The notes beneath the pieces were generated by a model. The model ran no database searches and was not told the origin of the DNA. It saw only the letters and a program-made list of their open reading frames with translations. From Desulfotalea psychrophila LSv54 (GTDB lineage Bacteria > Desulfobacterota > Desulfobulbia > Desulfobulbales > Desulfocapsaceae): a DNA stretch of 32,000 bases. Positions 1 to 27,225 of this stretch are shown here, one piece after another. The stretch's first letter is position 1. The number at the start of each line of letters is the position of its first letter. The position numbers were made by a program, and so were the translations under genes. The stretch is taken from positions 3,270,001-3,302,000 of the forward strand of contig NC_006138.1 in NCBI RefSeq assembly GCF_000025945.1, written 5' to 3'.

Positions 1-783
1 AACCCCTCGAGCGCCATCCACCCCAACATCCTCAAGCAGTTGATTATCAATGGCTATACGGGCAGCATCGATAGCACGATTCTCACCACTTGCACTACCC
101 ACTCCCATAATGGCAGGGCCCACTTCCTTCATAACGGTACGAAGATCCGCAAAATCAGCATTAATAAGACCAGGTACGTTAATGAGATTTGAAATACCCC
201 TTACTGCCTGAAGTAAGACGGTATCTGCCATAAGCAGCATATCCGCCAACTTACTCGTTTTTTGCCCAAGAGAAAGGAGTCGATCATTGGGAACAGTGAT
301 AATGGTATCCACATTGGCGCGCAATTCCTGCCAACCCTGCTCGGCATGCCTTGCCCGCACCTTACCCTCAAAGCTGAAGGGTTTGGTAACCACAGCCACG
401 GTAAGAGCACCCGCTTCCTTTGCTATCTTAGCAATTACAGGAGCGGCCCCTGTCCCTGTTCCACCACCAAGGCCTGCTGCCACAAAAACCATGTCGCATC
501 CCTCAACGGCAGCCTTCAAATCTTCGAGTGATTCAAGAGCGGCAAGTTTACCTGTTTCAGGATCAGCACCGGCGCCAAGCCCTTTAGTAATACCAGGACC
601 CATCTGCAACACGACATCTGCCATCGATTCCTGAAGTGCTTGCAAATCGGTATTGACCGAGATAAACTGCACCCCCTGCAAACCATTGCGCACCATACTG
701 TTAATGGCATTACCACCACCACCACCAACGCCAAAAACCTTGATAACAGCAATACCTGTCTGCTCAGCAATTCTGAACGCCAT
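1..783 (-). CDS. ftsZ: Cell division GTPase FtsZ, N-terminal 261 codons (3' end lies beyond the window edge)
   Basis: Not in the supplied ORF track because the ORF has no stop inside the window. My translation of the reverse strand from ATG (781-783) gives MAFRIAEQTGIAVIKVFGVGGGGGNAINSMV...VFVAAGLGGGTGTGAAPVIAKIAKE...NDRLL. It carries the tubulin/FtsZ signature GGGTGTG and sits directly downstream of ftsA. Confidence 0.95.
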   Translation of the reverse strand, partial: MAFRIAEQTGIAVIKVFGVGGGGGNAINSMVRNGLQGVQFISVNTDLQALQESMADVVLQMGPGITKGLGAGADPETGKLAALESLEDLKAAVEGCDMVFVAAGLGGGTGTGAAPVIAKIAKEAGALTVAVVTKPFSFEGKVRARHAEQGWQELRANVDTIITVPNDRLLSLGQKTSKLADMLLMADTVLLQAVRGISNLINVPGLINADFADLRTVMKEVGPAIMGVGSASGENRAIDAARIAIDNQLLEDVGVDGARGV

Positions 784-898: not shown

Positions 899-2242
899 TT
901 ACATAATATTTTTGAAAAATCGACATATTTTAGTAAAAACTGAATGATCAACCAATCCCTTTCCCTGATGCTCTTCCCGACCAAAAAGAACCAAACCCAC
1001 GGCCGTCGTGCAACGGGGTGTATAAACATTTTCAACACGACCTGTAAGGCCTTCTGGATAGCCTACACGCACAGGTAAATCAAAAATTTGTTCGGCAAGG
1101 TCGGCAATATTAGGCAAGAGGGCAGTTCCCCCTGTAAGGACAATGCCATGACCAATATTCGTCTTCTGCCCAGACTCTATAAGCGCCTCGTCGACCATCT
1201 CCAAGATCTCTTTCGTCCGCGCCTCAAGTATTTCAACCAAAAATTTTTGAGGTGTTTTCACAGGATTTTTATCGCCACGCTTAGGTACTTCGACAACATA
1301 ATTCGATTTTACAACAGAGGCTATAGCGCCACCGTAATTTTCTTTAAGCCACTCAGCATCCCCTAGGGAGGTCAAGAGACCAACAGAAATATCATTGGTA
1401 AGATTATGGCCACCAAAATTTATCTGGCTGGTCTGACGAACAGTTCCCCCATGAAAAACTGCAGTGTCAGTGGTTCCCCCCCCAATATCAACGAGGGCAA
1501 CCCCATTCTCTTTTTCCTCACGGGTAAGGACGGCATGGGCAGAGGCCACGGATTCCAGAACCAAGCTTGCCACCTTCACCCCCGCCTTCTCGCAACAGGT
1601 AACAAGGTTATGAATAGCACCGACATCAGCAGTCACAATATGCACATTTGTCGCCAACCGCACTCCGGTCATCCCCACGGGATTTTGAATACCAACATTA
1701 TCATCCACCATATACTCCTGGGGCAGTACATGGATTATATTCTGATTTTGGGAAATTTTTACCGTCTGAGCAGCCCTACGAACCGCCTCTAAATCAGACT
1801 TTTTAATCTCACGATCATTAATAGCAACAATACCCGGGCTGTTGAAACCCTTTATATGATCCCCGGCAATACCAACATAGGCAGGAACATTTTTCAGCTC
1901 ATAGTCTGAAGATTCTTCAGCAAGCCTCAGAGCCTTTTGAATAGATTGAACGGTGCTTTCAATATTATAGACAACACCTTTTTTCAAGCCCGAAGAGGGC
2001 ACCGTTCCAACCCCAAGAATATACAGAGAATCATCTAGCAACTCACCGACAACACAACATATTTTTGTTGTGCCTATATCAAGGCCAATAACAATTTCAC
2101 CCAGATCCCGATCTTCTCTTATCTCGGACGGATGAGTCTCTCTCTTTTTAATCTCCAACTCCCCGAAACTCTCCTGCTGCTCAGCCATTTCAGGTTCAGC
2201 CTCTAGGGATATATTCTCTTTTTTTTCTCTCATTTGTCTCAA
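899..2242 (-). CDS. ftsA: Cell division protein FtsA (actin-like ATPase)
   Basis: 447-aa ORF. It has the actin-fold phosphate-1 motif IVIGLDIGTTKICCVVGE and a later DIGGGTTD motif, plus a C-terminal amphipathic tail (FTKICRFFKNIM). It lies between ftsQ and ftsZ. The acidic N-terminal stretch of about 45 aa leaves the true start uncertain (alternative M19). Confidence 0.93.
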   Translation of the reverse strand: MRQMREKKENISLEAEPEMAEQQESFGELEIKKRETHPSEIREDRDLGEIVIGLDIGTTKICCVVGELLDDSLYILGVGTVPSSGLKKGVVYNIESTVQSIQKALRLAEESSDYELKNVPAYVGIAGDHIKGFNSPGIVAINDREIKKSDLEAVRRAAQTVKISQNQNIIHVLPQEYMVDDNVGIQNPVGMTGVRLATNVHIVTADVGAIHNLVTCCEKAGVKVASLVLESVASAHAVLTREEKENGVALVDIGGGTTDTAVFHGGTVRQTSQINFGGHNLTNDISVGLLTSLGDAEWLKENYGGAIASVVKSNYVVEVPKRGDKNPVKTPQKFLVEILEARTKEILEMVDEALIESGQKTNIGHGIVLTGGTALLPNIADLAEQIFDLPVRVGYPEGLTGRVENVYTPRCTTAVGLVLFGREEHQGKGLVDHSVFTKICRFFKNIM

Positions 2243-3234
2243 CTCGATTCACTCTCTGCGACCAAAACACGGTCTTTCATATAATCCAGCTGTATATAGC
2301 CTATTTTTGCAATTGAGTTTCTGCGCGGATGATTATAAATGTCTGCCAAAATTCTCACTAAGTATTTATACGCTTTTCCAACGCTTGTACTTCCAATATA
2401 GATGGGAAAGGAGTAATCAACAAGAAACAAAGTCAACTCTCCCTGTTCATCTACATAAATTTCTGAAATAGCATGCACTGGCAAATTTGGATTATTGTGC
2501 ACGACCTTGTCCATAAAGAGCACCACATTTTTAAGGGCTTGCTCAAAGGCCTCATCTTCAAGCAGATGAATACCTGTTATAATGGGAAAGTCTAAACTAT
2601 CTCCACTCCTTGGTGAAGAGAATATATCGCCGGACTTACTCAAATAAAAAAAAGTTTCTTTTTCACCCGGAGTATGAACAAGGGCAACCGGCACCTGCTC
2701 CTTAATTCTTATATTTACCGTCGATGGCCAATCAAAACTAACCGAGGCCTTCTCCACCCAAATAAGATCTTCAAGCCTCGCTGCCACAACGTCGGCATCC
2801 ACAGAGAACAGGCTATTTTGATAACGAAGAATACCTGTCTGCCGATATAAATCTGCAGATGACATTCGATGTTGGCCGGAAAATTTAACCTCCTCCACTC
2901 GAAAATAAGGTATCTTTCCAAGCAACCTGCCCACGGTATGAGGGTCACTGCATAAAAATATTACCGCCAAAAGAGAACAGGTCAAAAGGCCTACGACACA
3001 TTTTTGTATCGGTGAGAAGAGTTGTCGTTTTACAGAACAGGAGCAACTCCTCATCCGTAGCATCCCCCTAAAATGATCAAATAGACCACGACAAATATTT
3101 TGCAAAATCGTCCTCTTGGTGGAGGTCAAACGATTATTGTTAAAAGAAAAGCTAAAGGCAAAGGGATCCCCCTTCTCTTTTTTTCGAGAACGCACAAACC
3201 TCAATATGCCTGTTTTTATCTTTTTCATATCCAC
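2239..3234 (-). CDS. ftsQ: Cell division protein FtsQ (single TM plus POTRA domain)
   Basis: 331-aa ORF with one hydrophobic span (VVGLLTCSLLAVIFLC) followed by a POTRA-like segment (FRVEEVKFSGQHRMSSADLYRQTGI). It overlaps the ftsA start by 4 nt and occupies the canonical position upstream of ftsA. Confidence 0.85.
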   Translation of the reverse strand: MDMKKIKTGILRFVRSRKKEKGDPFAFSFSFNNNRLTSTKRTILQNICRGLFDHFRGMLRMRSCSCSVKRQLFSPIQKCVVGLLTCSLLAVIFLCSDPHTVGRLLGKIPYFRVEEVKFSGQHRMSSADLYRQTGILRYQNSLFSVDADVVAARLEDLIWVEKASVSFDWPSTVNIRIKEQVPVALVHTPGEKETFFYLSKSGDIFSSPRSGDSLDFPIITGIHLLEDEAFEQALKNVVLFMDKVVHNNPNLPVHAISEIYVDEQGELTLFLVDYSFPIYIGSTSVGKAYKYLVRILADIYNHPRRNSIAKIGYIQLDYMKDRVLVAESESS

Positions 3235-3239
3235 AATAA

Positions 3240-5575: not shown

Positions 5576-6685
5576 CTATAACTCGTCTCTGTTAATTAAT
5601 TGCCTGCATACCGCCACAATTTTACCAGCGGCATCGGTAGGAGCAAGCCTGCGTTGATTAAACTCCATTCTTTCTCGCTGTTCCCTGTTCGTTGCAATAG
5701 AAATAACTGCCTCAACAAGTTGCGGAGCTGTAAGCTCACTCTCCTTAAAGAGGAGAGCACCACCACCCTGAACATAATACTCAGCATTCTTCTGTTGGTG
5801 ATTATCTGCTGCAAAGGGATAGGGCACAAGAATCACCGGTTTACCCAAGGTGGCAAGCTCTGCCAGGGTGGTTGCCCCGGCCCGGGAAACCAAAATATCC
5901 GCCTGTGAATAGACGGCATCCATATCTTTAAAAAAGGGTTCTACCCAGACGTCCCTACCCGCATCCCCATAGGCCTGTTTTACCCAGGCAAGATCCTTTG
6001 TCCCCGTCTGATGAATGAGATTTATCCCGGCGAGCGACTCACTGCCTACACCAACAAAAGCCTCAACAATAAGACGATTGAGACTCCTTGCCCCCTGGCT
6101 ACCACCAAGCACCAATAGGGTCACGCCCTCCTTCACCTCTCTTGCCTTAGCAGCAAGGGCAACAAGATTTTCTCTTACCGGATTACCGGTAAAGACAACC
6201 TTGTCGGCAGGAAAACAGGAGGCACTGGCGGGCAGAGAGACACATACCCTGTCCACCAATTTAGCCAGTTTTCTATTGGCAAGGCCCGGCACTGAATTTT
6301 GCTCATGGATAAGGGTGGGACGACGACATAACTTGGCCATGGCAACCACGGGGCCAGTCACATAACCACCGACCCCAAGGACAAGATCCGGACGAAAACG
6401 GGCCAGAATGAAGAGAGCCTGCAGGCAGGATATTGGCAAGACAAGCAGGGCCTTTACAAGCTCCCGCATATTTTTTCCCTTCAATCCATAACTATTAATG
6501 GCAACGCCTTTAAAACCATAACGTTCCAAAGTCTCTGCATCCATCTTTCTCTTGGTTCCGACAAAGAGCACCTCGGCCCCGGGATATTCCCGACAAAACT
6601 GTTGGGCAGCGGCAATTGCTGGAAAGAGATGTCCTCCGGTGCCCCCACCTGTTAAAAGAATTCTTTTGCGTCTGGTCTCTTTCAT
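5576..6685 (-). CDS. murG: Undecaprenyldiphospho-muramoylpentapeptide beta-N-acetylglucosaminyltransferase MurG
   Basis: 369-aa ORF with the G-loop LLTGGGTGGHLFPAIAAA and the C-terminal segment SRAGATTLAELATLGKPVILVP, typical of MurG. Confidence 0.95.
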   Translation of the reverse strand: MKETRRKRILLTGGGTGGHLFPAIAAAQQFCREYPGAEVLFVGTKRKMDAETLERYGFKGVAINSYGLKGKNMRELVKALLVLPISCLQALFILARFRPDLVLGVGGYVTGPVVAMAKLCRRPTLIHEQNSVPGLANRKLAKLVDRVCVSLPASASCFPADKVVFTGNPVRENLVALAAKAREVKEGVTLLVLGGSQGARSLNRLIVEAFVGVGSESLAGINLIHQTGTKDLAWVKQAYGDAGRDVWVEPFFKDMDAVYSQADILVSRAGATTLAELATLGKPVILVPYPFAADNHQQKNAEYYVQGGGALLFKESELTAPQLVEAVISIATNREQRERMEFNQRRLAPTDAAGKIVAVCRQLINRDEL

Positions 6686-6703
6686 AATGGGTTTTCTCTG
6701 ATT

Positions 6704-8074
6704 TTATTTGGATCCAACATCTTGTAATTGCAAAACCTGCCGACGAAATTGCTCGCCCCTGTCCTGATAGTTGGCAAACATATCAAAGCTTGCACAGGCA
6801 GGAGACAAGAGGACACTATCTCCCTCCTCGGCAAACGAAGCGGCAAGGGATACTGCCTCGGCAAGAGAGGTGGCCCGATAAACTTGCACCACATCCTCCA
6901 GGGCCGCAACCAGCAGAGGCGTCGCCTCACCAATACAGATAAGTGTACGAACATGACCCGCCACAGCTTCCCGCAACAGTCTATAATTATCACCCTTATC
7001 ACGCCCGCCGGCAATGAGTATTACTCGCACCAGCTGCTGCAGGGCGCTTATAACCGCACCGGTATTTGTTGCCTTGGAGTCATTATAATATTGAACCCCT
7101 GCAATACTGGCCACAGGTTCCATCCGATGGGCATCAAGGGTAAAGGCCGCAATGCCCCTCTCTATATCTGCCTTTGCACAGGCAAGCGAACGGGCAATAA
7201 AGGCTGCCGGGGCAGCATTGAGCCAGCCCGTTCTATTATCAAGGGCACTGTCTCGCAGAGAATAAATTTCACGCTGACCAGCAAAGTCAAATTCAAAGTG
7301 GCCAGCAGCGACGGAAATATCACTGGCAGCTGAGAAACCAAAGAGATACCTGCTCGCCTCTCCGCAACCATCGCTGAGCAGGCAGAGGGGATCATCACCG
7401 CTAACGATGGCAATATCGGTCATGCCCTGCTTCTGGAAAAGATGCATTTTAGCTGCCCGATAGCCTGCCAGATCCCCGTGCCGATCAAGGTGATCAGGAC
7501 TCAGATTGAGAAGCAGGGCAATATGGGGTGAAAAATCTCCGGCAAGCTCCAGCTGAAAGCTCGACACCTCAAGCACTATCACATCCACCTCATCACCTGA
7601 GCTCAGCAGATCCAAGAGCGGCACCCCGATATTACCACCGACAAATACCCTCTTACCTGAGGCTCGCAAAAGATCGCCCACAAGTGAGGTAACCGTGGTC
7701 TTGCCATTAGTCCCTGTAATGGCCACAACGGGCCGATCAAGAACCGGAGCCGCCAGGGCAAGTTCTCCAAGCACCTGCACCCCCGCTCTCCGTAATCGCG
7801 CCAGGAGTTCACCGTCAGCAAAGCCCGGGCTGACAAAAATAACATCCGCCTGCGACAAAAACTGAAAAGTATGTCCACCGGCCTCATAATCAACGACTAC
7901 ATCTCCTGCCAGGGCAACCAACTGGGCAAGTAGCGCCTCTTCATCTCTCCTATCAGAGACAAGAAGATGAGCCCCGAAACCGAGGGCATAGCGCAGGGCA
8001 GCCTTGCCTGAAACACCAAGGCCAATGATGGCAAAGGTGGTGTGGGCATCTATATAGGGATTTTTTTTCAACAT
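6704..8074 (-). CDS. murD: UDP-N-acetylmuramoylalanine--D-glutamate ligase MurD
   Basis: 456-aa ORF with the N-terminal motif IGLGVSGKAALRY and the Mur ligase P-loop ITGTNGKTTVTSL. It lies immediately downstream of mraY. Confidence 0.94.
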   Translation of the reverse strand: MLKKNPYIDAHTTFAIIGLGVSGKAALRYALGFGAHLLVSDRRDEEALLAQLVALAGDVVVDYEAGGHTFQFLSQADVIFVSPGFADGELLARLRRAGVQVLGELALAAPVLDRPVVAITGTNGKTTVTSLVGDLLRASGKRVFVGGNIGVPLLDLLSSGDEVDVIVLEVSSFQLELAGDFSPHIALLLNLSPDHLDRHGDLAGYRAAKMHLFQKQGMTDIAIVSGDDPLCLLSDGCGEASRYLFGFSAASDISVAAGHFEFDFAGQREIYSLRDSALDNRTGWLNAAPAAFIARSLACAKADIERGIAAFTLDAHRMEPVASIAGVQYYNDSKATNTGAVISALQQLVRVILIAGGRDKGDNYRLLREAVAGHVRTLICIGEATPLLVAALEDVVQVYRATSLAEAVSLAASFAEEGDSVLLSPACASFDMFANYQDRGEQFRRQVLQLQDVGSK

Positions 8075-9224: not shown

Positions 9225-12200
9225 TTAAACAAAGGGGGGGATCAGGGTTTCTAACTGCATTCCCCGGGAGCCCTTTATAAAAACAATATCTTTTTCGCCA
9301 AGCCCACCATCGGCCTGATATGCCTGAAGCCAATCAATAATTGCCTCCTTTGAGGGAAAAACCAGTACCTGCTCTTTCCCCATTCCTGAATTCAGGGCTG
9401 CCTGTTGCAAAAAAGAGGCAAATTCCCCCACTATCAGGAGATAGTCAAGAGACAATTCCCCCGCCAGGCTACCAATCTGTCGATGAGCCTCCTCGGCAAA
9501 TTCACCCAACTCAAGCATATCACCGACAATAGCTATCTTTTTTTCTCCTGCAACTGTGGCAAGAGTTCGCAAACCGGCTGACATTGAAGCAGGATTAGCA
9601 TTATAACAGTCTGAAATAATTGTCCAATTACATGATGTCCTTATCCTTTCCAGTCGTTTAGAAGGCGTTTTGTAGCTCCCAAGTCCCAGGGCAATTTGCT
9701 GCGGGGAAGCACCGGCGGCAAGGGCGATGCCTGCCGCTGCCAGGGCATTACTGACATTATGCTCACCCAGGGTGTCTAACTGAACAGATGTCGACTCTGC
9801 TCCCAGATGCAAATTAAAATCTATGGAGCCAGCCTCGCCAGAGGAGAGGTCTGAAGCCCAGATATCCGCCGAACCTGCCGCCGAAAGAGAGTAGCAGATT
9901 TTTTTCTGTTCATAACCCTTGGCCATCTCCACCACATGGGGATCATCAAGGTTCACCACCAAGATGCTGTCTACAGGAGCATGAGCAAAGAGTTCCTCCT
10001 TAGCCCTGGCCACACCTTCAATAGAGCCAAGGCCACTGAGATGAGCAGCATGAACATTGGCCACACAGCAGATGTCAGGTTGGGCAATTTCGGCAAGACG
10101 GGCAATTTCACCGGGACTGTTCATCCCCATTTCCAGCACGGCCGCCCTGTGCATATTATCCAGAGGCAAGAGGGAAAGAGGAAGACCAATGAGATTATTA
10201 AAATTACCCTCTGTCTTCAAGACCACATTTTCCGGATATTCAGCTCCGGCGGGCCAAAGGCTAGCAAGAATACTAGCCGTCATCTCCTTTATGGTAGTCT
10301 TACCTGAACTTCCCGTAATACCCACCACCACGGGTTTTGTCGTCCCAGCAAAGGCACACCTACGGGCAGCAGCCATATCTCCCAGAGCTCTGCGAGTATC
10401 AGCTACAAGGACCTGAGGGCAGGTCAAATCGGGACGGGCCTTTTCCACCACAAGACAGGCTGCACCTGCGGCAACCACCTGATCGAGGTAAGCGTGACCA
10501 TCGTGGTTTTCCCCACGCAGGGCAACAAAGATACTGCCACGGCCAACAGATCTACTATCCGTTGTCACCTCACCCAAGAGAAGAGGCGTAAGCATTCCAC
10601 CTATGAGAGAACCGCCTGTGGCAGCCACAAGCTTATCAGGGGTCCAGGAGGCCAGGGCTCGACCTGCCTGAAGACGATCATCAAAGAACTTCTTACCTGT
10701 CGCCCCAAGCTGATAGGGTTCGTGCCCCTTACCGGCAATGGCAATAATATCTTTGGAGCAGGCCATATGGACAGCCAGATCAATGGCCCGCCTGCGGTCG
10801 CCAACAACCACGCAACCACGTTCATTTGCCTTTCGCTCAAAAAGCCAATCAGGGTTCCTGAGAGGCATTGCCTGCTCGGCAACACCCACCACAATCTCTG
10901 CCAAAATTGGTTCAGACGCCTCGGTGCGAGGATTATCGTCCGCCACAATAACAACATCGGCAAGCCTTGCCGCCACCGCACCCATCAGGGGCCTTTTGCC
11001 CTTATCACGGTCACCCCCACAGCCAAAAACGGCTATAAGATCTCCATGGGGCACATCTCCAAGGGTGGAGAGCAGTTTATCCAAGGCGTCAGGAGTATGG
11101 GCATAATCAACGAAGACAACTGGCTGAGCATTAGCGGGAGTTTCAGTAGCAAAGACACGTTCAACCCGCCCCGGTGCCCCCTGCAGGCGGCCAATATTCT
11201 CAGCAATATCTTGTCCAGATATGGCCAATGCCCGACAGGCAGCAATAACCGCCAAAAGATTATCAATATTAAATCGACCCACCAGACCACTTTGAAATTC
11301 AAGCATTTGCTGACAGTCTGCTAAACGAACAGCACAGTCTGTCTCGGTAAGCCCCACCCGATAGTGATGCAACTGCACATCAGAGCCCACTTCTTCCCCC
11401 CAAGAGAGAAATCTGTTTCGCCCTGCCAGTTGTCGGTGCAGCCTCTGTAAAAATTCGGTCTGCAGTTGCCTGCTATCACTGGGGATAACGGCAATGCCAT
11501 CCTCCTTGAGATAGCGGGAAAAGAGTCCCAGTTTTGCCGAAAAATAGTCCTCCATCTGCAAATGATAATCAAGGTGATCACGGGAGAGGTTAGTAAAGAT
11601 GGCAAGATCAAACCTAAGAGCACCGATACGGGCCTGGGAAATCGCATGGGATGAAACTTCCATAATAACAGTATCAACACCTGCATCGGCCATCCGGCGG
11701 AGAAGCTGCTGAACTATTTTTGCATCCGGGGTGGTCAGAGATGTGGCAATAATCTCTTGAGAACCATCGGCACGATAAAAACGATTATTAACGGTACCAA
11801 TAACACCCACCTGATGCCCCAACCGAGTCAGCATATCTTCAAGCAAATAGCTTATGGTGGTCTTACCATTGGTGCCTGTTATACCCACAAGTGAGAGTTT
11901 TTCCGCAGGATTAGCAAAATAATTAGCCAAAATTTTGCCATAGGCCGCCTGACTATCCGCAACCTCTATGACAAGGGCCGGACAATGGGCATAGGCGTTT
12001 TGAGAAACAGAGCCTGCCTCTACAATAACTACCGGACAACCCCGCAAAAGAGCGTCTTCAACATAGGCATGACCGTCTTGAATACCACCACGCCGAGCAA
12101 TAAAAAGAGATCCACTGGCAACCTGACGAGAATCTGCCGTCACATCTGCCACCAGATGGGTTTGAGGGTCCAGCTCAGACCGAGAGGGAAGTTGTAACCA

Positions 12201-12269
12201 CTCAAGGCCCTCTAATAATTTTTCCAAAACACAGTTACCTTCCACTACATCCCCCTGAGTTTTCACCAA
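9225..12269 (-). CDS. murE/murF: Fused MurE (UDP-MurNAc-tripeptide synthetase, meso-DAP type) / MurF (UDP-MurNAc-pentapeptide synthetase)
   Basis: Single uninterrupted 1014-codon ORF.
- Residues about 1-540 look like MurE: P-loop GITGTNGKTTISYL, NLSRDHLDYH, and the DNPR motif (D445-R448, nt 10926-10937).
- Residues about 541-1014 look like MurF: TTDSRSVGRGSIFVALRGENHDGH, and a second P-loop GITGSSGKTTIKEM.
- The junction is near nt 10650.
- The start is a non-ATG codon (TTG 12269 or GTG 12266/12245), so the exact start is uncertain. Confidence 0.9.
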   Translation of the reverse strand: MVKTQGDVVEGNCVLEKLLEGLEWLQLPSRSELDPQTHLVADVTADSRQVASGSLFIARRGGIQDGHAYVEDALLRGCPVVIVEAGSVSQNAYAHCPALVIEVADSQAAYGKILANYFANPAEKLSLVGITGTNGKTTISYLLEDMLTRLGHQVGVIGTVNNRFYRADGSQEIIATSLTTPDAKIVQQLLRRMADAGVDTVIMEVSSHAISQARIGALRFDLAIFTNLSRDHLDYHLQMEDYFSAKLGLFSRYLKEDGIAVIPSDSRQLQTEFLQRLHRQLAGRNRFLSWGEEVGSDVQLHHYRVGLTETDCAVRLADCQQMLEFQSGLVGRFNIDNLLAVIAACRALAISGQDIAENIGRLQGAPGRVERVFATETPANAQPVVFVDYAHTPDALDKLLSTLGDVPHGDLIAVFGCGGDRDKGKRPLMGAVAARLADVVIVADDNPRTEASEPILAEIVVGVAEQAMPLRNPDWLFERKANERGCVVVGDRRRAIDLAVHMACSKDIIAIAGKGHEPYQLGATGKKFFDDRLQAGRALASWTPDKLVAATGGSLIGGMLTPLLLGEVTTDSRSVGRGSIFVALRGENHDGHAYLDQVVAAGAACLVVEKARPDLTCPQVLVADTRRALGDMAAARRCAFAGTTKPVVVGITGSSGKTTIKEMTASILASLWPAGAEYPENVVLKTEGNFNNLIGLPLSLLPLDNMHRAAVLEMGMNSPGEIARLAEIAQPDICCVANVHAAHLSGLGSIEGVARAKEELFAHAPVDSILVVNLDDPHVVEMAKGYEQKKICYSLSAAGSADIWASDLSSGEAGSIDFNLHLGAESTSVQLDTLGEHNVSNALAAAGIALAAGASPQQIALGLGSYKTPSKRLERIRTSCNWTIISDCYNANPASMSAGLRTLATVAGEKKIAIVGDMLELGEFAEEAHRQIGSLAGELSLDYLLIVGEFASFLQQAALNSGMGKEQVLVFPSKEAIIDWLQAYQADGGLGEKDIVFIKGSRGMQLETLIPPFV

Positions 12270-12302: not shown

Positions 12303-14135
12303 CTACAAACGCTTTTTAGCATATCTCTTGCGACGCATACTGTCTGGATTCTGCAAACTTATCCGGCATGTTTTTATAGCTTCCATGCTCGCGCCCTTAG
12401 GCGGATACTGAGAACTCACCCAACCTGTTCCCTCAACAAGAGGCTGACAATCATAGTCCTGCAAAATTTGCAGACTCTTACGCATGCTGAGTCCCATAAG
12501 ATCAGGCATCATAGCCTTTCTCTCCTTCCGGGCAGTTCTCCCTACGAGCCCTTCCTTCACCCCCTCCTGAAAAGGCAGAAATTTCTGCTCGGGTAAGAGT
12601 GGAGCAACGACAGGCAAGCTATCAAAGACCTGCTGCAGGGAGGCAATTCGCCGTAATACCTTATCGACAGCTCCGGCAAGGCTTTTCTTCCGCCCCTTGG
12701 TAACCGCGGAATTCCTTTCCACAACCAGTAACATGGCAAAATTACGTTTCAGGCTTGGTTGAAGTGCAAAGACAAGCTCCTGCTGCACAAGTCCCCTGCC
12801 CTCCTCAAAGAAGACAGGCTGAGCTTCACTTAAAAGTAAGGATGAGACGCGCCTACCACCACCCCTACTAAAGACAAATTTCTTTACCTCTTTAGAACCA
12901 AGACGAAAGGTCAAACGGGCATCCAAGGGAAAATCAATACTATGGGAGAAAAAAACACTCTCCTGACTCTGCTGGTCAACAATCTTCTCAACCACATGGG
13001 GGCGAATACTCTCCCGACCACTTGCAAGACTTGACAGTCCCATAAGGAGATGAATAGGAGAAATATTCCTTGGAGGCGTGGCAAAATTTTTGTAGGTTTC
13101 AGCCCGAGTAAAATAATCCCTCTGCCCGTTCATCACCTTATTCGAAGCCGCAAAATCAGGTTTCCATCCATCGCCAAAACCCAACCAACGCCAGACCAAG
13201 TTCTCCTTTACAATATTTTCTTGAGTCTTTATAACAGACCAGGGCAGGAAATATTTCTCGTGAGCGGACCCATAAAGGAGAGAGGCGTCAGCAAAGAGAT
13301 TCTGAAAACTCTGAGGGACAGGTATAGGCTGAAGGAAAAAATTGGCACGTTGGTCCTGGGGGCACTTCCTGAATTCATTGGGATTACAGGTCGGCCACTG
13401 AGCACCGGCAAGCACCCCTCCCGTTTTAGCGTCAACCACATAGGCGGCAACGCGTTCTATATTCCCCTCCGCAGCAATACCTTGGAGCATTTTTTCGAGA
13501 AGACGCTGACTCTTTACATCTACGGTAAGAACAAGATCCTGTACACCCGATAGAGAAATTGCTAAATAATCTTTTTCCAGATCCCCACGCAGCAATTTAT
13601 CAAAATAACACTCTACACCTGAAACGCTAACATCATCCTCCACAACACCAATCAAATGAGTGGCAAGACTGGTCTCCGGATAGTATCTCACCGTCTTCCT
13701 GTCAAAATATACACCCTGAAGATCGGCTGCCTCTATCTCCGCCACCTGCCCTTTGCTCAACCCTTCTGCCAGCCAGACACGCAGGGCCTCCGAATCCAAT
13801 CTGGCCCGTAAGGTCTCCTGGTCGATGCATAAAATTTTCGCAAGTATCCTGGATACCGTGTCGGGATTTTCCAATTCTCTGGTTCGGCAAAAAAGGGCCA
13901 CCCTCTGCGCATTCACAGCCAAAGGAGTATTGTACCTATCGTAAACATTGCCACGCGTCAGAAAGGCCTTGCCCTCAGCACCGTCTAACTGATTTTTAGC
14001 TGCAAGTATCCTGTCAACAAGGTGATAGCGAACATCACATTCTCTCCCTGCCACGGCCAATATGGAAAGCATGATAAAAAACAACCACTTCTTCCATCCC
14101 CTTTTCTTTCTCACACGAAGACGAGATTTTCTCAC
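12303..14135 (-). CDS. FtsI-like class B penicillin-binding protein homologue with a C-terminal PASTA-like domain. The catalytic motifs appear degenerate, so it may be a pseudo-transpeptidase.
   Basis: 610-aa ORF in the ftsI slot.
- It has an N-terminal TM anchor.
- It has PBP dimerisation-domain landmarks: RGNVYDRYNTPLAV and RYYPETSLATHLIGV.
- It has DAKTGGVLAGAQWPTCNPN, and a PASTA-like end (MPDLMGLSMRKSLQILQDYDCQPLVEGTGWVSSQYP).
- At the aligned active-site positions I read SFQN (not SxxK), ASN (not SxN) and LLS (not KTG). See findings. Confidence 0.8.
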   Translation of the reverse strand: MRKSRLRVRKKRGWKKWLFFIMLSILAVAGRECDVRYHLVDRILAAKNQLDGAEGKAFLTRGNVYDRYNTPLAVNAQRVALFCRTRELENPDTVSRILAKILCIDQETLRARLDSEALRVWLAEGLSKGQVAEIEAADLQGVYFDRKTVRYYPETSLATHLIGVVEDDVSVSGVECYFDKLLRGDLEKDYLAISLSGVQDLVLTVDVKSQRLLEKMLQGIAAEGNIERVAAYVVDAKTGGVLAGAQWPTCNPNEFRKCPQDQRANFFLQPIPVPQSFQNLFADASLLYGSAHEKYFLPWSVIKTQENIVKENLVWRWLGFGDGWKPDFAASNKVMNGQRDYFTRAETYKNFATPPRNISPIHLLMGLSSLASGRESIRPHVVEKIVDQQSQESVFFSHSIDFPLDARLTFRLGSKEVKKFVFSRGGGRRVSSLLLSEAQPVFFEEGRGLVQQELVFALQPSLKRNFAMLLVVERNSAVTKGRKKSLAGAVDKVLRRIASLQQVFDSLPVVAPLLPEQKFLPFQEGVKEGLVGRTARKERKAMMPDLMGLSMRKSLQILQDYDCQPLVEGTGWVSSQYPPKGASMEAIKTCRISLQNPDSMRRKRYAKKRL

Positions 14136-14145
14136 ACCTTAATCA

Positions 14146-14526
14146 CTACCTATAGCTAAAATAATTTTTCGCAGAATTATAAACACGGCGCTGCCCTTTT
14201 TGGGGCAGATACAGTCCATATTCTTCCGCCCGTTTCTGAAGCACAACCGAACTCATAAGCTTTCGTCTTTCACTCTTGAGCTGTAAATTTATGCCAAGAA
14301 GATCGTAGTTAATATTTTCAACCTGGGTTGTAGCACCGATAGCACGAACATTCATAGAAAAGAGCAGAGCAGAACTCAGACATACCAAAAAACTAATCAG
14401 CAGAAAGACCTTAGTCAAAGCCCTGAGTAACGGAGACTCCAATAAACCTGCCTCCTCCCCTGCCTCCGCCCTTCGACGAATCTCCTTGGGCCCAGCAGCT
14501 ACTTGAAATAAATTATACAGTGCCAT
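14146..14526 (-). CDS. ftsL: Cell division protein FtsL-like (bitopic membrane protein)
   Basis: 126-aa ORF between rsmH and the ftsI homologue. It has a single TM (VFLLISFLVCLSSALLF) followed by a helical segment ending RAEEYGLYLPQKGQ, resembling the conserved FtsL C-terminus. Sequence conservation in this family is weak, so the call rests largely on position. Confidence 0.7.
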   Translation of the reverse strand: MALYNLFQVAAGPKEIRRRAEAGEEAGLLESPLLRALTKVFLLISFLVCLSSALLFSMNVRAIGATTQVENINYDLLGINLQLKSERRKLMSSVVLQKRAEEYGLYLPQKGQRRVYNSAKNYFSYR

Positions 14527-14632: not shown

Positions 14633-15520
14633 CTACACTTTTTCCGCTACCCGTAATAGCGCACTTCTGGAACGATAATTCCGATCCAACTCTTCCTCAC
14701 CTGCCTTAACGGGCTTATTGGTTATCACCTTAAAGTTTGGATTTTCCCGAAATTTACGCTTAACAATCCTATCTTCGAGCGAATGAAAGGATATTATGCA
14801 AAATCTGCTCCCTGGCTTTAAAAACTCACCTGCGTCATCAATTATTTTTGATAAATTTTCAAGTTCGGTGTTCACTGCAATACGAAGGGCCTGAAAAACC
14901 TTGGTGGCCACATGTATCTTCTTAGGGTGAAAACGCTTAGGAATAGCCCTGGCAACCACCCTCACCAACTGTTTTGTGGTCTGAATAGGTTCCAACTTTC
15001 TGGCGGCAACGATGGCTGCGGCAATAGGCCTGGCCTGGCGCTCCTCTCCATAGCAGTAAAAAAGATCCGCCAACTGCTCCTCTGTACAGGTAGCAATAAT
15101 GGTCGCAGCGGTCATCTCCCCACGCTCGTCCATGCGCATATCAAGGTCATCATCACGCTGAAAACTAAAGCCCCGCGTCCCCGTATCAAGTTGCAGGGAG
15201 GAGAGACCTATATCAATCAACAAGCCATCAATATGAGAAATTCCAGCCTCGGTAAGCCCCACACCTATCTCTGCAAAATTACGGCGAACAAGAGTCAGCC
15301 TCTCTCCGTAGGGAGCTAGTCTCTCCCTACTGGCCTTAATTGCATTTTCATCCCACTCAAAGGCAACCACTCGACCATCTGGAGCCGTCCTCTCTAAAAT
15401 AGCAGAGGTATGCCCTCCAAGCCCCATCGTCCCATCAACATATATACCGCCTGGCTGCAAACAAAGAAACTCCATGGTTTCCTCAAGCAAAACAGAGATA
15501 TGAATTTTTTCAGCATCCAT
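14633..15520 (-). CDS. rsmH: 16S rRNA (cytosine1402-N4)-methyltransferase RsmH (MraW)
   Basis: The track ORF extends to 15631 and overlaps mraZ. I place the start at ATG 15518-15520 (MDAEKIHISVLLEE...), 10 nt after the mraZ stop and preceded by a purine-rich GGGGCCAAGG. Motifs present are GGIYVDGTMGLGGHT (SAM binding) and SFHSLEDRIVK. Confidence 0.93.
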   Translation of the reverse strand: MDAEKIHISVLLEETMEFLCLQPGGIYVDGTMGLGGHTSAILERTAPDGRVVAFEWDENAIKASRERLAPYGERLTLVRRNFAEIGVGLTEAGISHIDGLLIDIGLSSLQLDTGTRGFSFQRDDDLDMRMDERGEMTAATIIATCTEEQLADLFYCYGEERQARPIAAAIVAARKLEPIQTTKQLVRVVARAIPKRFHPKKIHVATKVFQALRIAVNTELENLSKIIDDAGEFLKPGSRFCIISFHSLEDRIVKRKFRENPNFKVITNKPVKAGEEELDRNYRSRSALLRVAEKV

Positions 15521-15530
15521 CCTTGGCCCC

Positions 15531-15983
15531 CTATAAAATACCCATATTGCGAAGACCTTCTGAAAAATCCTCAAAACCATCTCGGACAGCCTGCTGCTCA
15601 CTGGCCCAGGCTGTCGCATCCCATATTTCAATCCAACTTAACATTCCGTTCAATACCACATTTTTTTCCAGGCCGGCATCAAGCCGTAGTGTCTGCGGAA
15701 TAAGTAGCCGTCCCTGTTTATCCAGAGCTGCCTCCACAACTCCACCCACAACATAGCGTACCCAGCCGGAAAGATTTTGTTCTCCACCATGATTGTGCAT
15801 CTTCGTCTCAAGTTCTTCCCACTCGGCAAGGGGATAAATTCGCAGATGAGTTTTAAAAGGAGCTATAATAAGGTCCTGACTTTCAAAACTTTCCAGGACA
15901 TCAGAGAAGCGCCTTGGGAAGTTTAACCGTCCCTTGGTATCCAATGTGTGCTCTGTTCTGCTTCGAAATCGAACCTTGCGCAT
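15531..15983 (-). CDS. mraZ: Transcriptional regulator MraZ
   Basis: 150-aa ORF with two SpoVT/AbrB-like halves carrying the repeated motif DTKGRLNFP ... DKQGRLLIP. It is the first gene of the dcw cluster. Confidence 0.93.
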
Positions 15984-16381: not shown

Positions 16382-16786
16382 TCAATAATTGGGGAAGAAG
16401 GTCATATTACTATTTTCACTCCAACCGGAGCTTCTGGATGGACGTGATGGTCGACTCATCCGACTGGATTCAGCAGGCCGACTTTGCCTGGATGATCTAC
16501 TAGGTTTCGATTTTCTACCAGGCCGAGAAACACCATCAGAGCTATGGCTGGTAAAGAATGCGTACCTACCATTTTTATAATCTATAATGCTACCATTATG
16601 TAACCAACCTAAATATTGACCTAAATAAGAAATAATACATTGGTGATTATATAAATACGCTATAGGCGTTCCATCATAGTGATAAAAATATTTTCCGTCA
16701 CTATGCAGATAAAACAAAGCATGGCCTGAACTATCATAAAAAGGTGTGATTTCATTCTCTGGAAATGGATTTAATTCGTTACTCAT
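16382..16786 (-). CDS. Hypothetical protein: aromatic-rich beta-type N-terminal domain plus a Ser/Arg/Pro low-complexity tail
   Basis: Start chosen at ATG 16784-16786 (MSNELNPFPEN...), which has a strong RBS (AAAGAGGAG) 6 nt upstream. The track ORF starts 12 codons earlier. The N-terminal coding part is visibly AT-rich compared with its neighbours. The tail is SRPGRKSKPSRSSRQSRPAESSRMSRPSRPSRSS, followed by GWSENSNMTFFPNY. From memory it resembles proteins annotated as 4-fold beta-flower domain proteins, but this is unverified. Confidence 0.6.
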   Translation of the reverse strand: MSNELNPFPENEITPFYDSSGHALFYLHSDGKYFYHYDGTPIAYLYNHQCIISYLGQYLGWLHNGSIIDYKNGRYAFFTSHSSDGVSRPGRKSKPSRSSRQSRPAESSRMSRPSRPSRSSGWSENSNMTFFPNY

Positions 16787-16830
16787 AACACTCCTCTTTA
16801 GATGCAAATGCACCAAACGCACAACAAGGC

Positions 16831-24640: not shown

Positions 24641-26500
24641 CTATTCAACAGTAACCGACTTAGCCAGGTTACGGGGTTGATCCACATCACAACCACGTCT
24701 CGTTGCTATCTCATAGGAGAGTAGCTGAGCGGGGATGGTGTAGAGAATGGGATTAACATCATCGTCCACCCGTGGCAGGTAGATAACATCATCGCTGATG
24801 TTTGCCAGCTGACTGTCTCCCTCGCTACCAATGAGGATAAGGCGGCCCTGACGTGCCTTTATCTCCTCAACATTAGAGATACTCTTCTGATAGACATCAT
24901 CATCTGGGACCAGGGCAAGTATGGGCATATCCCTATCAATAAGGGCAATGGGGCCATGCTTGAGCTCGCCCGAGGCATAACCTTCGGCATGAATATAGGA
25001 TATCTCTTTCAGCTTCAGGGCTCCTTCAAGGGCAATGGGAAAGCTGAGACCACGGCCGATAAAAAGAAAATCCCGACTGTCGTAGTAGTCATCTATCAGC
25101 GAGGCTATCTTCTTCTGCAGGCTGGGCAGAATCTCCTCTATCACGGTGGCCACACCAACCAGAGCTCTACCCAGTTGCAGGCTCTTTTCCAGACTTAACT
25201 GCTTACGTTTCTGACCAAGAAAGACAGTGAAGAGGAGAAGAGCTGAGAGCTGAGCGGTAAAGGCCTTGGTGGAGGCCACACCAATTTCAGGGCCGGCATG
25301 GGTATAGATGACGCCATCGGCTTCCCGAGTCATGGTTGAGCCAACAACATTACAGATGGTGAGAATCTTAGAGCCCATCTTCTTTGCCCTACGAATGCCG
25401 GCAAGGGTGTCGGCGGTTTCACCTGACTGAGAGATACAGATGGTCAGCACCCGCTCATCTATAAGTAGATGGCGATAACGAAATTCTGAGGCAATATCAA
25501 CCTGCACGGGGATTTTTGCGTATTTTTCCAGCCAATATTTTGCAACCATAGCTGCATGCCAGGAGGTGCCACAGGCAACCAGAAAAATCCTGTCTATGTC
25601 CCTTAGCTGCTCGTCACTAAAGCCCAGATTCGGCAAATTGGCCTTACCCGACTCAAGATTAATACGACCGGCAACGGTATTGGTTATGGCCTGTGGTTGC
25701 TCAAATATCTCTTTCAACATGAAGTGCTTATAACCACCCTTCTCTGCCATGGAGGCACTCCAGTCAATAAAAGTGATCTCCTTGTCAACGGGCTCACCGC
25801 TCACCAGAGAGGCTATTTGATAATCATCAGCGGTAAGGACCGCAATCTCCATATCATCAAGAAAGATTACCTTTCTGGTATAGGGAAGAAGAGCAGGGGT
25901 ATCCGAGGCCAAAAACATGCCCTTTTCTTCTCCAATACCGAGAACAAGGGGGCTCTGATTACGCACGGCAATAAGGGTTTCCGGCGCCTTGGCCCACATA
26001 ACTCCTAGAGCATAGGAGCCTTCAACCCGAGCGAGCGCCTCTTTGATAGCACGAACAAGGACATCTACCCCATGGGCATCTTGCTCAAGATACTCCTCAA
26101 TAAGATGGGCAAGGACCTCGGTATCAGTCTCCGAGGTAAAAACATGCCCCTTGGCCCGAAGCTCCTCACGCAGGGAGTGATAGTTTTCGATAATACCATT
26201 ATGAACCAGAACCAGCTCACCCGTACAATCACTATGAGGATGGGCATTCTCCATGGTTGGAGCACCGTGGGTTGCCCAGCGGGTGTGGCCTAGGCCGAGG
26301 TGGGAGGGGGCGACAAGATCATCGCCGACAACATCTTCCAGACAAGATAGTTTACCGTTAGCGCGATGCTTGACTATTTTTCCATCCTGAAGGTAGACGA
26401 GTCCGGCAGAATCATAACCTCGATACTCCAGACGCCGCAAACCTTCCAGAATAACAGGCACAACTTTTTTAGGACCACAATAGCCAACAATACCACACAT
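24641..26500 (-). CDS. glmS: Glutamine--fructose-6-phosphate aminotransferase (isomerising) GlmS
   Basis: True start taken at ATG 26498-26500, giving MCGIVGYCGPKK (the obligatory Cys2 nucleophile), with GGGAGG upstream. The 72 extra N-terminal codons of the track ORF are rejected. The protein has two SIS domains and the characteristic C-terminus AKSVTVE. Confidence 0.96.
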   Translation of the reverse strand: MCGIVGYCGPKKVVPVILEGLRRLEYRGYDSAGLVYLQDGKIVKHRANGKLSCLEDVVGDDLVAPSHLGLGHTRWATHGAPTMENAHPHSDCTGELVLVHNGIIENYHSLREELRAKGHVFTSETDTEVLAHLIEEYLEQDAHGVDVLVRAIKEALARVEGSYALGVMWAKAPETLIAVRNQSPLVLGIGEEKGMFLASDTPALLPYTRKVIFLDDMEIAVLTADDYQIASLVSGEPVDKEITFIDWSASMAEKGGYKHFMLKEIFEQPQAITNTVAGRINLESGKANLPNLGFSDEQLRDIDRIFLVACGTSWHAAMVAKYWLEKYAKIPVQVDIASEFRYRHLLIDERVLTICISQSGETADTLAGIRRAKKMGSKILTICNVVGSTMTREADGVIYTHAGPEIGVASTKAFTAQLSALLLFTVFLGQKRKQLSLEKSLQLGRALVGVATVIEEILPSLQKKIASLIDDYYDSRDFLFIGRGLSFPIALEGALKLKEISYIHAEGYASGELKHGPIALIDRDMPILALVPDDDVYQKSISNVEEIKARQGRLILIGSEGDSQLANISDDVIYLPRVDDDVNPILYTIPAQLLSYEIATRRGCDVDQPRNLAKSVTVE

Positions 26501-26589
26501 ATAAACATCCTCCCAAGGTAAGATTAAATTTTTTCCGCTTAACTTTATATTAATACCATGTATTTTAAACTGAAGGCGAGTTTTTTCTT

Positions 26590-26618
26590 TTGATAGCTTA
26601 TGCAAAAAGTAGTATCCT
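26590..26618 (+). promoter_or_regulatory. Candidate sigma70-type promoter for pyrE (TTGATA-17 nt-TATCCT)
   Basis: Hexamers read at 26590-26595 and 26613-26618, about 50 nt upstream of the pyrE ATG. This is a pattern match only. Confidence 0.25.
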
Positions 26619-26670
26619 CGCACAAAATTTAGCCATATATATTTAACACAATGACCTTGGGGCAACAAAA

Positions 26671-27225
26671 ATGACAGATAGACAACGATTAAAAGAAATT
26701 CTCTTGGAAAAATCATACCGAGAGGGCGCTTTCACCCTTACTTCAGGAAAAACTTCAGACTTTTATATCGACGGCAAACAGACAACCCTCTCCGCAGAAG
26801 GTGCCCTTCTTTGTGGAAAGCTCCTCTTTCAACTCATTGCCGAGAATGAAACCAAGATCGATGCAGTAGGCGGTATGACCCTCGGGGCTGATCCACTTGT
26901 CACTGCAGTTTCCATTGCAAGCTTTCTCCAAGATGCACCAATTCCAGCCTTTATCGTACGAAAAGAGGCCAAGGGCCACGGAACGGGAAATTACATCGAA
27001 GGCCTTAAGAACATGGCAGATGGTTGCACCGTAGCCCTGCTCGAAGATGTTGTAACCACCGGTGGCACCCTGATCAAGGTCATCGACCGCGTTGAAGCTG
27101 CCGGCTTTAAGGTGGGTCTTGTCGCCACCGTTATTGAAAGACAGGAAGGCGGCACAGCCGTACTGGCCGAAGCGGGCTACACCCTGAAATCTATCTTTAC
27201 CCGTGAAGAGTTGCTCAGTAAATAA
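26671..27225 (+). CDS. pyrE: Orotate phosphoribosyltransferase PyrE
   Basis: 184-aa ORF with FTLTSGKTSDFYIDGK and the PRPP-binding motif VALLEDVVTTGGT. Confidence 0.94.
   Translation: MTDRQRLKEILLEKSYREGAFTLTSGKTSDFYIDGKQTTLSAEGALLCGKLLFQLIAENETKIDAVGGMTLGADPLVTAVSIASFLQDAPIPAFIVRKEAKGHGTGNYIEGLKNMADGCTVALLEDVVTTGGTLIKVIDRVEAAGFKVGLVATVIERQEGGTAVLAEAGYTLKSIFTREELLSK

What the first reader, a model, noticed from the sequence alone, without database searches (positions are those of the whole stretch)
12303..14135. The dcw-cluster FtsI homologue appears to have lost all three transpeptidase active-site motifs (predicted pseudo-PBP)
The ORF keeps the class B PBP architecture: TM anchor, dimerisation/pedestal landmarks, the TG..LA...P..NPN block, the TPLQ-like ISPIHLLMGLSSLASG block, the FxGxxP-like FALQPSLKRNFAMLLVV block, and a C-terminal PASTA-like domain.

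I aligned it by eye to E. coli FtsI from memory (S307-T-V-K310, S359-S-N361, K494-T-G496):
- Motif 1: counting from the conserved NPN(N/E), the nucleophile Ser sits at the same offset (+22), but the motif reads S276-F-Q-N279 (nt 13299-13310). The general-base Lys is therefore replaced by Asn.
- Motif 2: the SxN position reads A330-S-N332 (nt 13140-13148).
- Motif 3: the KTGTAQ position reads L434-L-S-E-A-Q439 (nt 12819-12836).
- About 30 residues also seem to be deleted between motif 2 and the TPLQ-like block.

A catalytically dead bPBP retained in the ftsI slot would imply a scaffold or regulatory role. Septal cross-linking would then be done by another enzyme.
Basis: partly seen in the sequence, partly recalled or inferred. 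Interest (0 to 1): 0.7.

Follow-up and report, generated by a model that had tools for sequence, protein, structure and literature searches.

The report
Catalytically dead FtsI without FtsW
The cell-division penicillin-binding protein (FtsI) of Desulfotalea psychrophila has kept its fold but lost its catalytic residues, and across the order Desulfobulbales this goes with loss of its partner gene ftsW from the division gene cluster, so these bacteria probably build their division septum in an unusual way.

Summary
ORF 12303-14135(-), DP2902 of Desulfotalea psychrophila LSv54, sits in the ftsI slot between ftsL and murE. It is a class B PBP homologue with a TM helix, a pedestal (PF03717, 3e-16), a PBP-like fold (AlphaFold pLDDT 88; Foldseek 1e-26 to PBP2x, PBP3 and SpoVD) and a C-terminal PASTA domain.

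It has no SxxK, SxN or K(T/S)G at the catalytic positions. S276-F-Q-N starts helix alpha2. The roughly 30-residue deletion lies between motifs 1 and 2.

- **Not a one-off.** About 107 of the best 150 cluster representatives lack the nucleophile. They cover Desulfocapsaceae, Desulfobulbaceae and Desulfurivibrionaceae.
- **Under selection.** The degenerate domain has dN/dS of 0.11-0.19.
- **ftsW is missing too.** In all 26 Desulfobulbales loci, murD abuts murG. All 7 outgroup loci with canonical FtsI keep ftsW. Published work reports no ftsW in Desulfobulbus or Electrothrix genomes.

Best reading: a non-catalytic divisome scaffold. Septal peptidoglycan would be made by other synthases; this step is inferred. 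I found no paper describing it.

The parts
12303..14135 (-). Degenerate ftsI (DP2902), 610 aa. Domains: TM helix 14-37, pedestal about 60-229, pseudo-transpeptidase domain about 230-500, PASTA about 541-600.
13299..13310 (-). Motif 1 position: S276-F-Q-N279 in place of S-x-x-K, at the N-terminus of predicted helix alpha2.
13230..13241 (-). Motif 2 position by profile alignment: W299-S300-V-I302. The family conserves 'PWS'; the Asn of SxN is lost.
12819..12836 (-). Motif 3 position: L434-L-S-E-A-Q439 on predicted strand beta3, in place of K-T-G-T-A-Q.
12336..12515 (-). C-terminal PASTA domain (residues about 541-600). It is the best conserved part of the C-terminal half in the family.
14146..14526 (-). 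Gene in the ftsL slot (126 aa, one TM segment). It has no significant Pfam hit.
6686..6703 (-). The 18-nt murD-murG junction, where ftsW sits in canonical dcw clusters. No ftsW is present.
9225..12269 (-). Fused murE-murF gene (1014 aa) immediately downstream of the degenerate ftsI.
2239..3234 (-). ftsQ (POTRA domain), retained.
899..2242 (-). ftsA, retained.
1..783 (-). 5' part of ftsZ; the gene runs off the window.

Best explanation
DP2902 is the orthologue of FtsI (PBP3) and has become a pseudoenzyme. It keeps the membrane anchor, the pedestal, a penicillin-binding-protein-like fold and a PASTA domain. It has no acyl-enzyme machinery, so it cannot cross-link peptidoglycan or be acylated by beta-lactams.

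The change is ancestral to the order Desulfobulbales and goes with loss of ftsW, the gene for FtsI's glycosyltransferase partner, from the dcw cluster.

**Shown:** loss of the motifs; retention of the fold; purifying selection; the order-wide distribution; absence of ftsW from the cluster.

**Inferred:** the protein stays in the divisome as a non-catalytic scaffold or regulator. Its pedestal would bind FtsQ and FtsL, which are retained, and its PASTA domain would recognise peptidoglycan. Septal glycan polymerisation and cross-linking would be done by other synthases: the RodA-PBP2 pair encoded in the mre cluster of relatives, and/or class A PBPs.
For: - **Identity and position.** There is a 100% match to DP2902 of D. 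psychrophila LSv54. The gene lies between ftsL and murE.
- **Motifs lost.** The NCBIfam FtsI model scores 63.5 bits against a cut-off of 737.
- **Fold kept.** AlphaFold gives pLDDT 88.2 and pTM 0.82. Foldseek finds bPBPs at E 1e-26 to 1e-23 over 510-540 columns.
- **A family, not an accident.** An exhaustive phmmer search found about 50 full-length relatives and about 100 further relatives, nearly all without the Ser nucleophile. Named members include Desulforhopalus singaporensis, Desulfobulbus MAGs, Thiovibrio frasassiensis and Desulfurivibrio sp..
- **Selection.** dN/dS is 0.11-0.19 for the pseudo-TP domain, 0.04-0.12 for the pedestal and 0.03-0.16 for PASTA.
- **Pattern of constraint differs from canonical FtsI.** In canonical pairs TP identity is equal to or higher than pedestal identity, and TM identity is about equal to pedestal identity. 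In the pseudo family the TP domain and especially the TM helix diverge faster (TM 0.54 at pedestal 0.87), while PASTA keeps pace with the pedestal.
- **ftsW.** It is absent from the window and from all 26 Desulfobulbales loci, and present in all 7 outgroup loci with canonical FtsI.
- **Literature.** ftsW was not found in the genomes of two Desulfobulbus and two Ca. Electrothrix species, while a mre-pbpA-rodA cluster is present (PMC7873302).
Against: - The rest of the D. psychrophila genome could not be searched here. An ftsW or a second, intact bPBP elsewhere in this organism is therefore not excluded.
- The source genome was absent from the genome collection.
- No biochemical data exist.
- The scaffold role, the binding partners and the identity of the septal synthase are all inferred.
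- The faster-evolving TM helix rests on only three informative canonical control pairs.
- The co-occurrence of ftsW loss with FtsI decay is probably one ancestral event, so it counts as one evolutionary observation, not 26.
Confidence: 0.6

Rival explanations
1. SEDS swap. The dead FtsI still works as the allosteric partner of a SEDS polymerase, namely RodA (the only SEDS left) or an unlinked FtsW. It would bring that polymerase to the divisome and activate its glycosyltransferase, while cross-links are made in trans by PBP2, class A PBPs or L,D-transpeptidases.
For: - The pedestal, which in known bPBPs activates the SEDS partner (established knowledge of RodA-PBP2 and FtsW-FtsI), is the best conserved part: dN/dS 0.04-0.12 and Pfam 3e-16.
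- rodA is present in relatives (PMC7873302).
Against: - The TM helix, which contacts the SEDS protein in known complexes, diverges much faster here than in canonical FtsI. That is what loss of an intramembrane partner would predict.
- No SEDS gene lies within 10 kb of the gene in any of 26 loci.
Confidence: 0.25
2. It is still an enzyme. Catalytic residues would have migrated, for example S276 or S300 together with another Lys such as K303, so the protein would keep transpeptidase or another acyl-transfer or hydrolase activity.
For: - DP2902 happens to have Ser at the nucleophile position.
- S300 is conserved in 40 of 47 relatives.
- The domain is under purifying selection.
Against: - S276 is K, N, A or G in relatives, including the three closest.
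- K303 is not conserved; that column reads S, A or P.
- The Lys of motif 1, the Asn of motif 2 and the whole of K(T/S)G are missing family-wide.
- About 35 residues around the active-site wall are deleted.
Confidence: 0.05
3. It is a decaying relic with no function, left over after FtsW was lost.
For: The TP domain has diverged beyond Pfam recognition and evolves faster than the pedestal.
Against: - The reading frame is intact across three families of an order.
- dN/dS is 0.1-0.2 in every domain.
- New family-specific residues are conserved: W299, R at column 278, P274 and P360.
- AlphaFold gives a confident fold.
Confidence: 0.03

Closest known systems
FtsI / PBP3 of E. coli and P. aeruginosa (class B PBP, divisome D,D-transpeptidase; PDB 7onw, 7onx, 8bh1)
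   Same: - Same dcw position after ftsL.
- TM anchor and pedestal (PF03717).
- Conserved RG.I.DR, R.YP, TG..LA and NPN blocks.
- Overall fold.
   Different: - No SxxK, SxN or K(T/S)G.
- About 35 residues deleted around motif 2.
- PF00905 and the NCBIfam FtsI model both score below their cut-offs.
- No adjacent ftsW.
- An extra C-terminal PASTA domain.
FtsI with a C-terminal PASTA domain from neighbouring lineages (Syntrophia-like MAG loci L032 and L033), and SpoVD / PBP2x-type bPBPs (PDB 7rcz, 5u47)
   Same: Same TM-pedestal-TP-PASTA architecture. These are the best sequence and structure matches. They are probably the ancestral state.
   Different: They have intact STFK / SSN / KTG motifs and an ftsW gene between murD and murG.
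bPBPs whose transpeptidase activity is dispensable while the protein itself is needed: B. subtilis PBP2b and S. aureus PBP1 (recalled from the literature, not checked here)
   Same: They support the idea that a divisome bPBP has an essential non-catalytic role as a scaffold or SEDS activator, with PASTA domains mattering for that role.
   Different: Those proteins keep intact active sites, and inactivity was engineered. Here the inactivation is natural, ancient and order-wide, and it comes with loss of FtsW.

Membership tests
Class B PBP / FtsI (PBP3) D,D-transpeptidase | N-terminal membrane anchor followed by a pedestal (PBP dimerisation domain, PF03717) | tested here: met
   PF03717 at 3e-16, 60.8 bits against a cut-off of 24.4. 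Predicted helix at 14-37.
Class B PBP / FtsI (PBP3) D,D-transpeptidase | Transpeptidase domain PF00905 above the gathering score | tested here: not met
   19.4 bits against 22.1, and only residues 230-265 match. Desulfurivibrionaceae relatives still pass: 50.1 bits for P0305.
Class B PBP / FtsI (PBP3) D,D-transpeptidase | Penicilloyl-serine transferase fold | tested here: met
   AlphaFold pLDDT 88.2. Foldseek top 50 are all bPBPs, E 1e-26 to 1e-23, aligned over both domains.
Class B PBP / FtsI (PBP3) D,D-transpeptidase | Motif 1, S-x-x-K (nucleophile Ser and general-base Lys) | tested here: not met
   The position reads S276-F-Q-N279. The Ser column is not conserved in the family.
Class B PBP / FtsI (PBP3) D,D-transpeptidase | Motif 2, S-x-N | tested here: not met
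   hhalign gives S300-V-I302 and MAFFT gives Q-E-N. There is no S-x-N in the whole protein.
Class B PBP / FtsI (PBP3) D,D-transpeptidase | Motif 3, K-(T/S)-G on strand beta3 | tested here: not met
   L434-L-S on predicted beta3. The only KTG is at residue 237, outside the active site.
Class B PBP / FtsI (PBP3) D,D-transpeptidase | NCBIfam FtsI, PBP2 or SpoVD models above the curated cut-off | tested here: not met
   FtsI NF011685 scores 63.5 against 737. SpoVD scores 93.8 against 688. MrdA scores 76.4 against 455.
Class B PBP / FtsI (PBP3) D,D-transpeptidase | dcw position between ftsL and murE (orthology by synteny) | tested here: met
Class B PBP / FtsI (PBP3) D,D-transpeptidase | Cognate SEDS polymerase FtsW encoded in the cluster or genome | tested here: not met
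   No SEDS ORF or relic in the 32-kb window or in 26 related loci. The rest of this genome could not be searched. FtsW is reported absent from Desulfobulbaceae genomes (PMC7873302).
Class B PBP / FtsI (PBP3) D,D-transpeptidase | Covalent acylation by beta-lactams | not testable with these tools
   Needs a Bocillin-FL assay on purified protein.
PASTA domain (PF03793) | Profile match and an alpha plus three-strand fold | tested here: inconclusive
   DP2902 scores 19.2 bits against 23.2. Orthologues pass: 34.4 bits for P0012. The model matches PASTA domains 2z2l_C and 7o61_A at 1.4-1.5 Å (from a low-confidence model).
Pseudoenzyme (catalytically dead homologue kept by selection) | Fold retained, catalytic residues lost, purifying selection | tested here: met

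The most novel reading that the evidence does not exclude
A whole order of free-living, walled bacteria that divide with FtsZ (Desulfobulbales, including cable bacteria) has no working FtsW-FtsI septal synthase. ftsW is gone and FtsI survives only as a pseudoenzyme scaffold. The septum would then be built by the elongation pair RodA-PBP2 and/or class A PBPs recruited to the divisome.
Probability: 0.5. Interest if true: 0.85.

Novelty: new variant of a known kind. Interest (0 to 1): 0.72.

Why it matters
FtsW-FtsI is treated as the essential, near-universal core of septal wall synthesis and as a major antibiotic target.

A natural lineage that lost FtsW and inactivated FtsI, yet kept FtsZ, FtsA, FtsQ, FtsL and the FtsI protein, works as an evolutionary knock-out. 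It separates the structural role of FtsI from its catalytic role. It also raises the question of which synthase builds the septum in these bacteria.

Two practical points follow. These organisms should lack a PBP3-type beta-lactam target. Annotation of 'FtsI' as a working enzyme in cable-bacteria cell-cycle models needs revising.

Tried and rejected
- **Genome scan with the single MurE-MurF protein found nothing**. The source genome appears not to be in the collection.
- **The first C-terminal alignment (A3) was too divergent to make search patterns**. A 5-sequence alignment worked.
- **My first FtsW profile was contaminated.** Spurious long ORFs from high-GC loci gave false hits on MurG. I rebuilt it cleanly.
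- **A protein search with an outgroup FtsW returned only Syntrophia-type FtsW**. It could not show whether D. psychrophila has a SEDS gene elsewhere.
- **The domain-only AlphaFold run from 14 sequences was low confidence** (pLDDT 61.8). I use it only as weak support.
- **Nine literature searches found no description of a degenerate FtsI**.
- **Rejected: S300-V-I-K as the nucleophile motif.** S300 is in a loop and aligns with motif 2.
- **Rejected: pseudogene or sequencing artefact.** The frame is intact, more than 100 orthologues share the state, and dN/dS is low.
- **Rejected: a paralogue displacing FtsI.** Synteny and the PASTA architecture are shared with outgroup FtsI.
Full report
**What is there.** The window is from Desulfotalea psychrophila LSv54. 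The 610-aa product of 12303-14135(-) is 100% identical to DP2902. On the minus strand the dcw order is mraZ, rsmH, a 126-aa gene in the ftsL slot, this gene, a fused murE-murF, mraY, murD, murG, murC, murB, ftsQ, ftsA and the start of ftsZ. The gene therefore occupies the ftsI slot. Its GTG start matches the N-termini of orthologues, which begin M-x-K-x-S-R-L-R-V.

**Checking the observation.**
- Pfam finds the pedestal domain (PF03717, 3e-16). The transpeptidase model scores below threshold (19.4 against 22.1 bits) and matches only residues 230-265. PASTA is just below threshold.
- The NCBIfam models for FtsI, MrdA and SpoVD score 63-94 bits against cut-offs of 455-737.
- phmmer alignments to solved FtsI, PBP3 and SpoVD structures run cleanly to about residue 275 and then stop, apart from a short match at the TPLQ-like block.

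**The three motifs.**
- *Motif 1.* MAFFT with canonical homologues and a profile-profile alignment of 47 family members against 12 canonical FtsI (probability 100, E 2e-73, 542 columns) put S276 on the nucleophile column. Q278 or N279 falls on the Lys column.
- *Motif 2.* hhalign places the SxN serine on S300, within the family's conserved 'PWS', and the Asn column on I302.
- *Deletion.* The main deletion of about 29 residues lies between helix alpha2 and motif 2.
- *Motif 3.* MAFFT and the structure model support L434-L-S on strand beta3. hhalign shifts this locally. No alignment yields K(T/S)G.
- *Whole protein.* It contains no S-x-N at all, and its only KTG (residue 237) lies in the TG..LA block upstream of the catalytic region.

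**Fold.** AlphaFold2 on a 113-sequence alignment gives pLDDT 88.2 and pTM 0.82.
- Helix 275-290 begins at S276, as helix alpha2 does in PBPs.
- Residues 291-307, which include S300, form a loop.
- Strands 433-443, 448-459 and 466-475 form the beta3-beta5 sheet.
- Foldseek against the PDB returns only class B PBPs at the top (PBP2x, P. aeruginosa PBP3, SpoVD, S. aureus PBP1), at E 1e-26 to 1e-23 over 510-540 aligned columns.
- A lower-confidence domain-only model again hits PBP2x. Its C-terminus superposes on PASTA domains at 1.4-1.5 Å.

**It is a family.** An exhaustive phmmer search of 1.84 billion cluster representatives found 5114 hits.
- The best roughly 50 (26-38% identity) align end to end with DP2902.
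- Of the top 150, only three (P0095, P0141, P0149) carry STxK / SSN / KTG at the motif columns.
- In the 47 closest representatives the nucleophile column reads K17, N6, S4, A4. Across 107 degenerate members it reads G, A, K, L or E. So S276 of DP2902 is incidental.
- The family has its own conserved residues: P274, R at column 278 (42 of 47; DP2902 has Q), W299 (46 of 47), S300 (40 of 47) and P360.
- Named members cover three families of the order Desulfobulbales: Desulfocapsaceae (Desulforhopalus singaporensis, Desulfotalea and Desulfopila MAGs), Desulfobulbaceae (Desulfobulbus MAGs) and Desulfurivibrionaceae (Thiovibrio frasassiensis, Thiovibrio sp. JS02, Desulfurivibrio sp. D14AmB).
- NCBI names these proteins 'PASTA domain-containing protein' or 'penicillin-binding transpeptidase domain-containing protein', not FtsI.

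**Selection.** Nei-Gojobori estimates on ten orthologue pairs give these dN/dS ranges:

| Region | dN/dS |
|---|---|
| Pseudo-transpeptidase domain | 0.11-0.19 |
| Pedestal | 0.04-0.12 |
| PASTA | 0.03-0.16 |
| TM and juxtamembrane region | 0.28-0.59 |

The domain is constrained, so it is not decaying. Canonical FtsI pairs behave differently: TP identity is equal to or above pedestal identity, TM identity is about equal to pedestal identity, and PASTA is the least conserved. In the degenerate family the TP domain and especially the TM helix diverge faster (TM 0.54 when the pedestal is 0.87), while PASTA keeps pace with the pedestal. The canonical control set is small, with three informative pairs.

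**The missing partner.** In the window murD (6704-8074) is followed after 18 nt by murG (5576-6685), so there is no ftsW. There is also no ddl between murB and ftsQ.
- In 26 Desulfobulbales loci, counting the window, murD and murG are adjacent or at most about 250 bp apart.
- A clean FtsW profile and tblastn find no SEDS ORF or relic within about 10 kb of the gene in any of them.
- All seven outgroup loci with canonical FtsI carry a 1.14-1.29 kb ftsW between murD and murG. These come from Syntrophia-like and other deltaproteobacterial MAGs, Moorellaceae, Acidobacteriota and Mariprofundaceae. One of these ORFs was confirmed as PF01098 FtsW.
- The murE-murF fusion is shared by Desulfocapsaceae and Desulfobulbaceae but not by Desulfurivibrionaceae (locus L040). 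It therefore arose after the FtsI and FtsW changes, or was lost again in that family. This fusion has been noted before for Desulfobulbus (PMC6420597).
- Geerlings et al. 2021 (PMC7873302) report that ftsW, zipA and ftsN were not found in the genomes of Desulfobulbus propionicus, D. japonicus and two Ca. Electrothrix species, and that mre genes, pbpA and rodA form one cluster. They list FtsI as present and assume it makes the septal wall.

**Mechanism.**
- *Shown:* DP2902 is an FtsI orthologue with a PBP fold and no acyl-enzyme catalytic residues. It is maintained by selection across an order, in clusters that lack ftsW.
- *Inferred:* it acts as a non-catalytic divisome component. The strongly conserved pedestal fits continued contact with FtsQ and FtsL, which are retained. 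The conserved PASTA domain suggests recognition of peptidoglycan or its precursors. The fast-evolving TM helix fits loss of the intramembrane FtsW contact. Septal synthesis would then fall to RodA-PBP2 and/or class A PBPs.
- *Main rival:* the dead FtsI now pairs with RodA, or with an unlinked FtsW, as a polymerase activator.
- *Poorly supported:* residual non-canonical catalysis, or a functionless relic.

**Limits.**
- I could not search the rest of the D. psychrophila genome, which was absent from the genome collection.
- Absence of ftsW and of a second dcw-type bPBP in this organism rests on synteny in relatives and on the published Desulfobulbaceae survey.
- The link between ftsW loss and FtsI decay is probably a single ancestral event.
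- No paper in the searchable library describes the degenerate FtsI, but subscription literature was not covered.

**Verdict.** It is a new variant of a known kind, a class B PBP pseudoenzyme. It should be of real interest to cell-division research and is directly testable.

Noticed in passing
window 6686-6703 (murD-murG junction) and 3235-3239 (murB-ftsQ junction): ftsW and ddl are both missing from an otherwise complete dcw cluster. The ftsW absence is shared by all 26 Desulfobulbales loci examined, while 7 outgroup loci keep it.
   Followed up: yes
window 9225-12269 (-): murE and murF are fused into one 1014-aa ORF. The fusion is shared by Desulfocapsaceae and Desulfobulbaceae loci but not by the Desulfurivibrionaceae locus L040, where murE and murF are separate. 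It has been noted before for Desulfobulbus (PMC6420597).
   Followed up: partly
window 16382-16822 (-): A 146-aa '4-fold beta flower' protein (PF21784, 5e-31) with a Ser/Arg/Pro-rich repetitive C-terminal tail lies between mraZ and panB. Relatives (L002, L005) have ruvC-ruvA-ruvB between yebC and panB; D. psychrophila does not.
   Followed up: no
window 24641-26716 (-): A GlmS-like ORF (GATase plus two SIS domains) is 691 aa. The Pfam GATase match begins only at residue 138, so either the listed start is over-extended or there is an unusual N-terminal extension.
   Followed up: no
window 14633-15631 (-): The rsmH ORF as listed (TTG at 15631) overlaps mraZ by about 100 nt. Homologues align only from residue about 35-44, so the true start is probably an internal ATG.
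   Followed up: no
L010, L014, L016, L019, L024 (MFD-series MAG contigs): Several dcw genes, including the pseudo-ftsI, appear broken into frame-shifted pieces in these contigs. Because many genes are affected, this is most likely long-read assembly error, not real pseudogenisation. I left these loci out of the dN/dS analysis.
   Followed up: partly
L002 12991-13932: In the closest relative's contig only the first half of murD (residues 2-234) is detectable between mraY and murG. This could be a deletion or an assembly problem.
   Followed up: no
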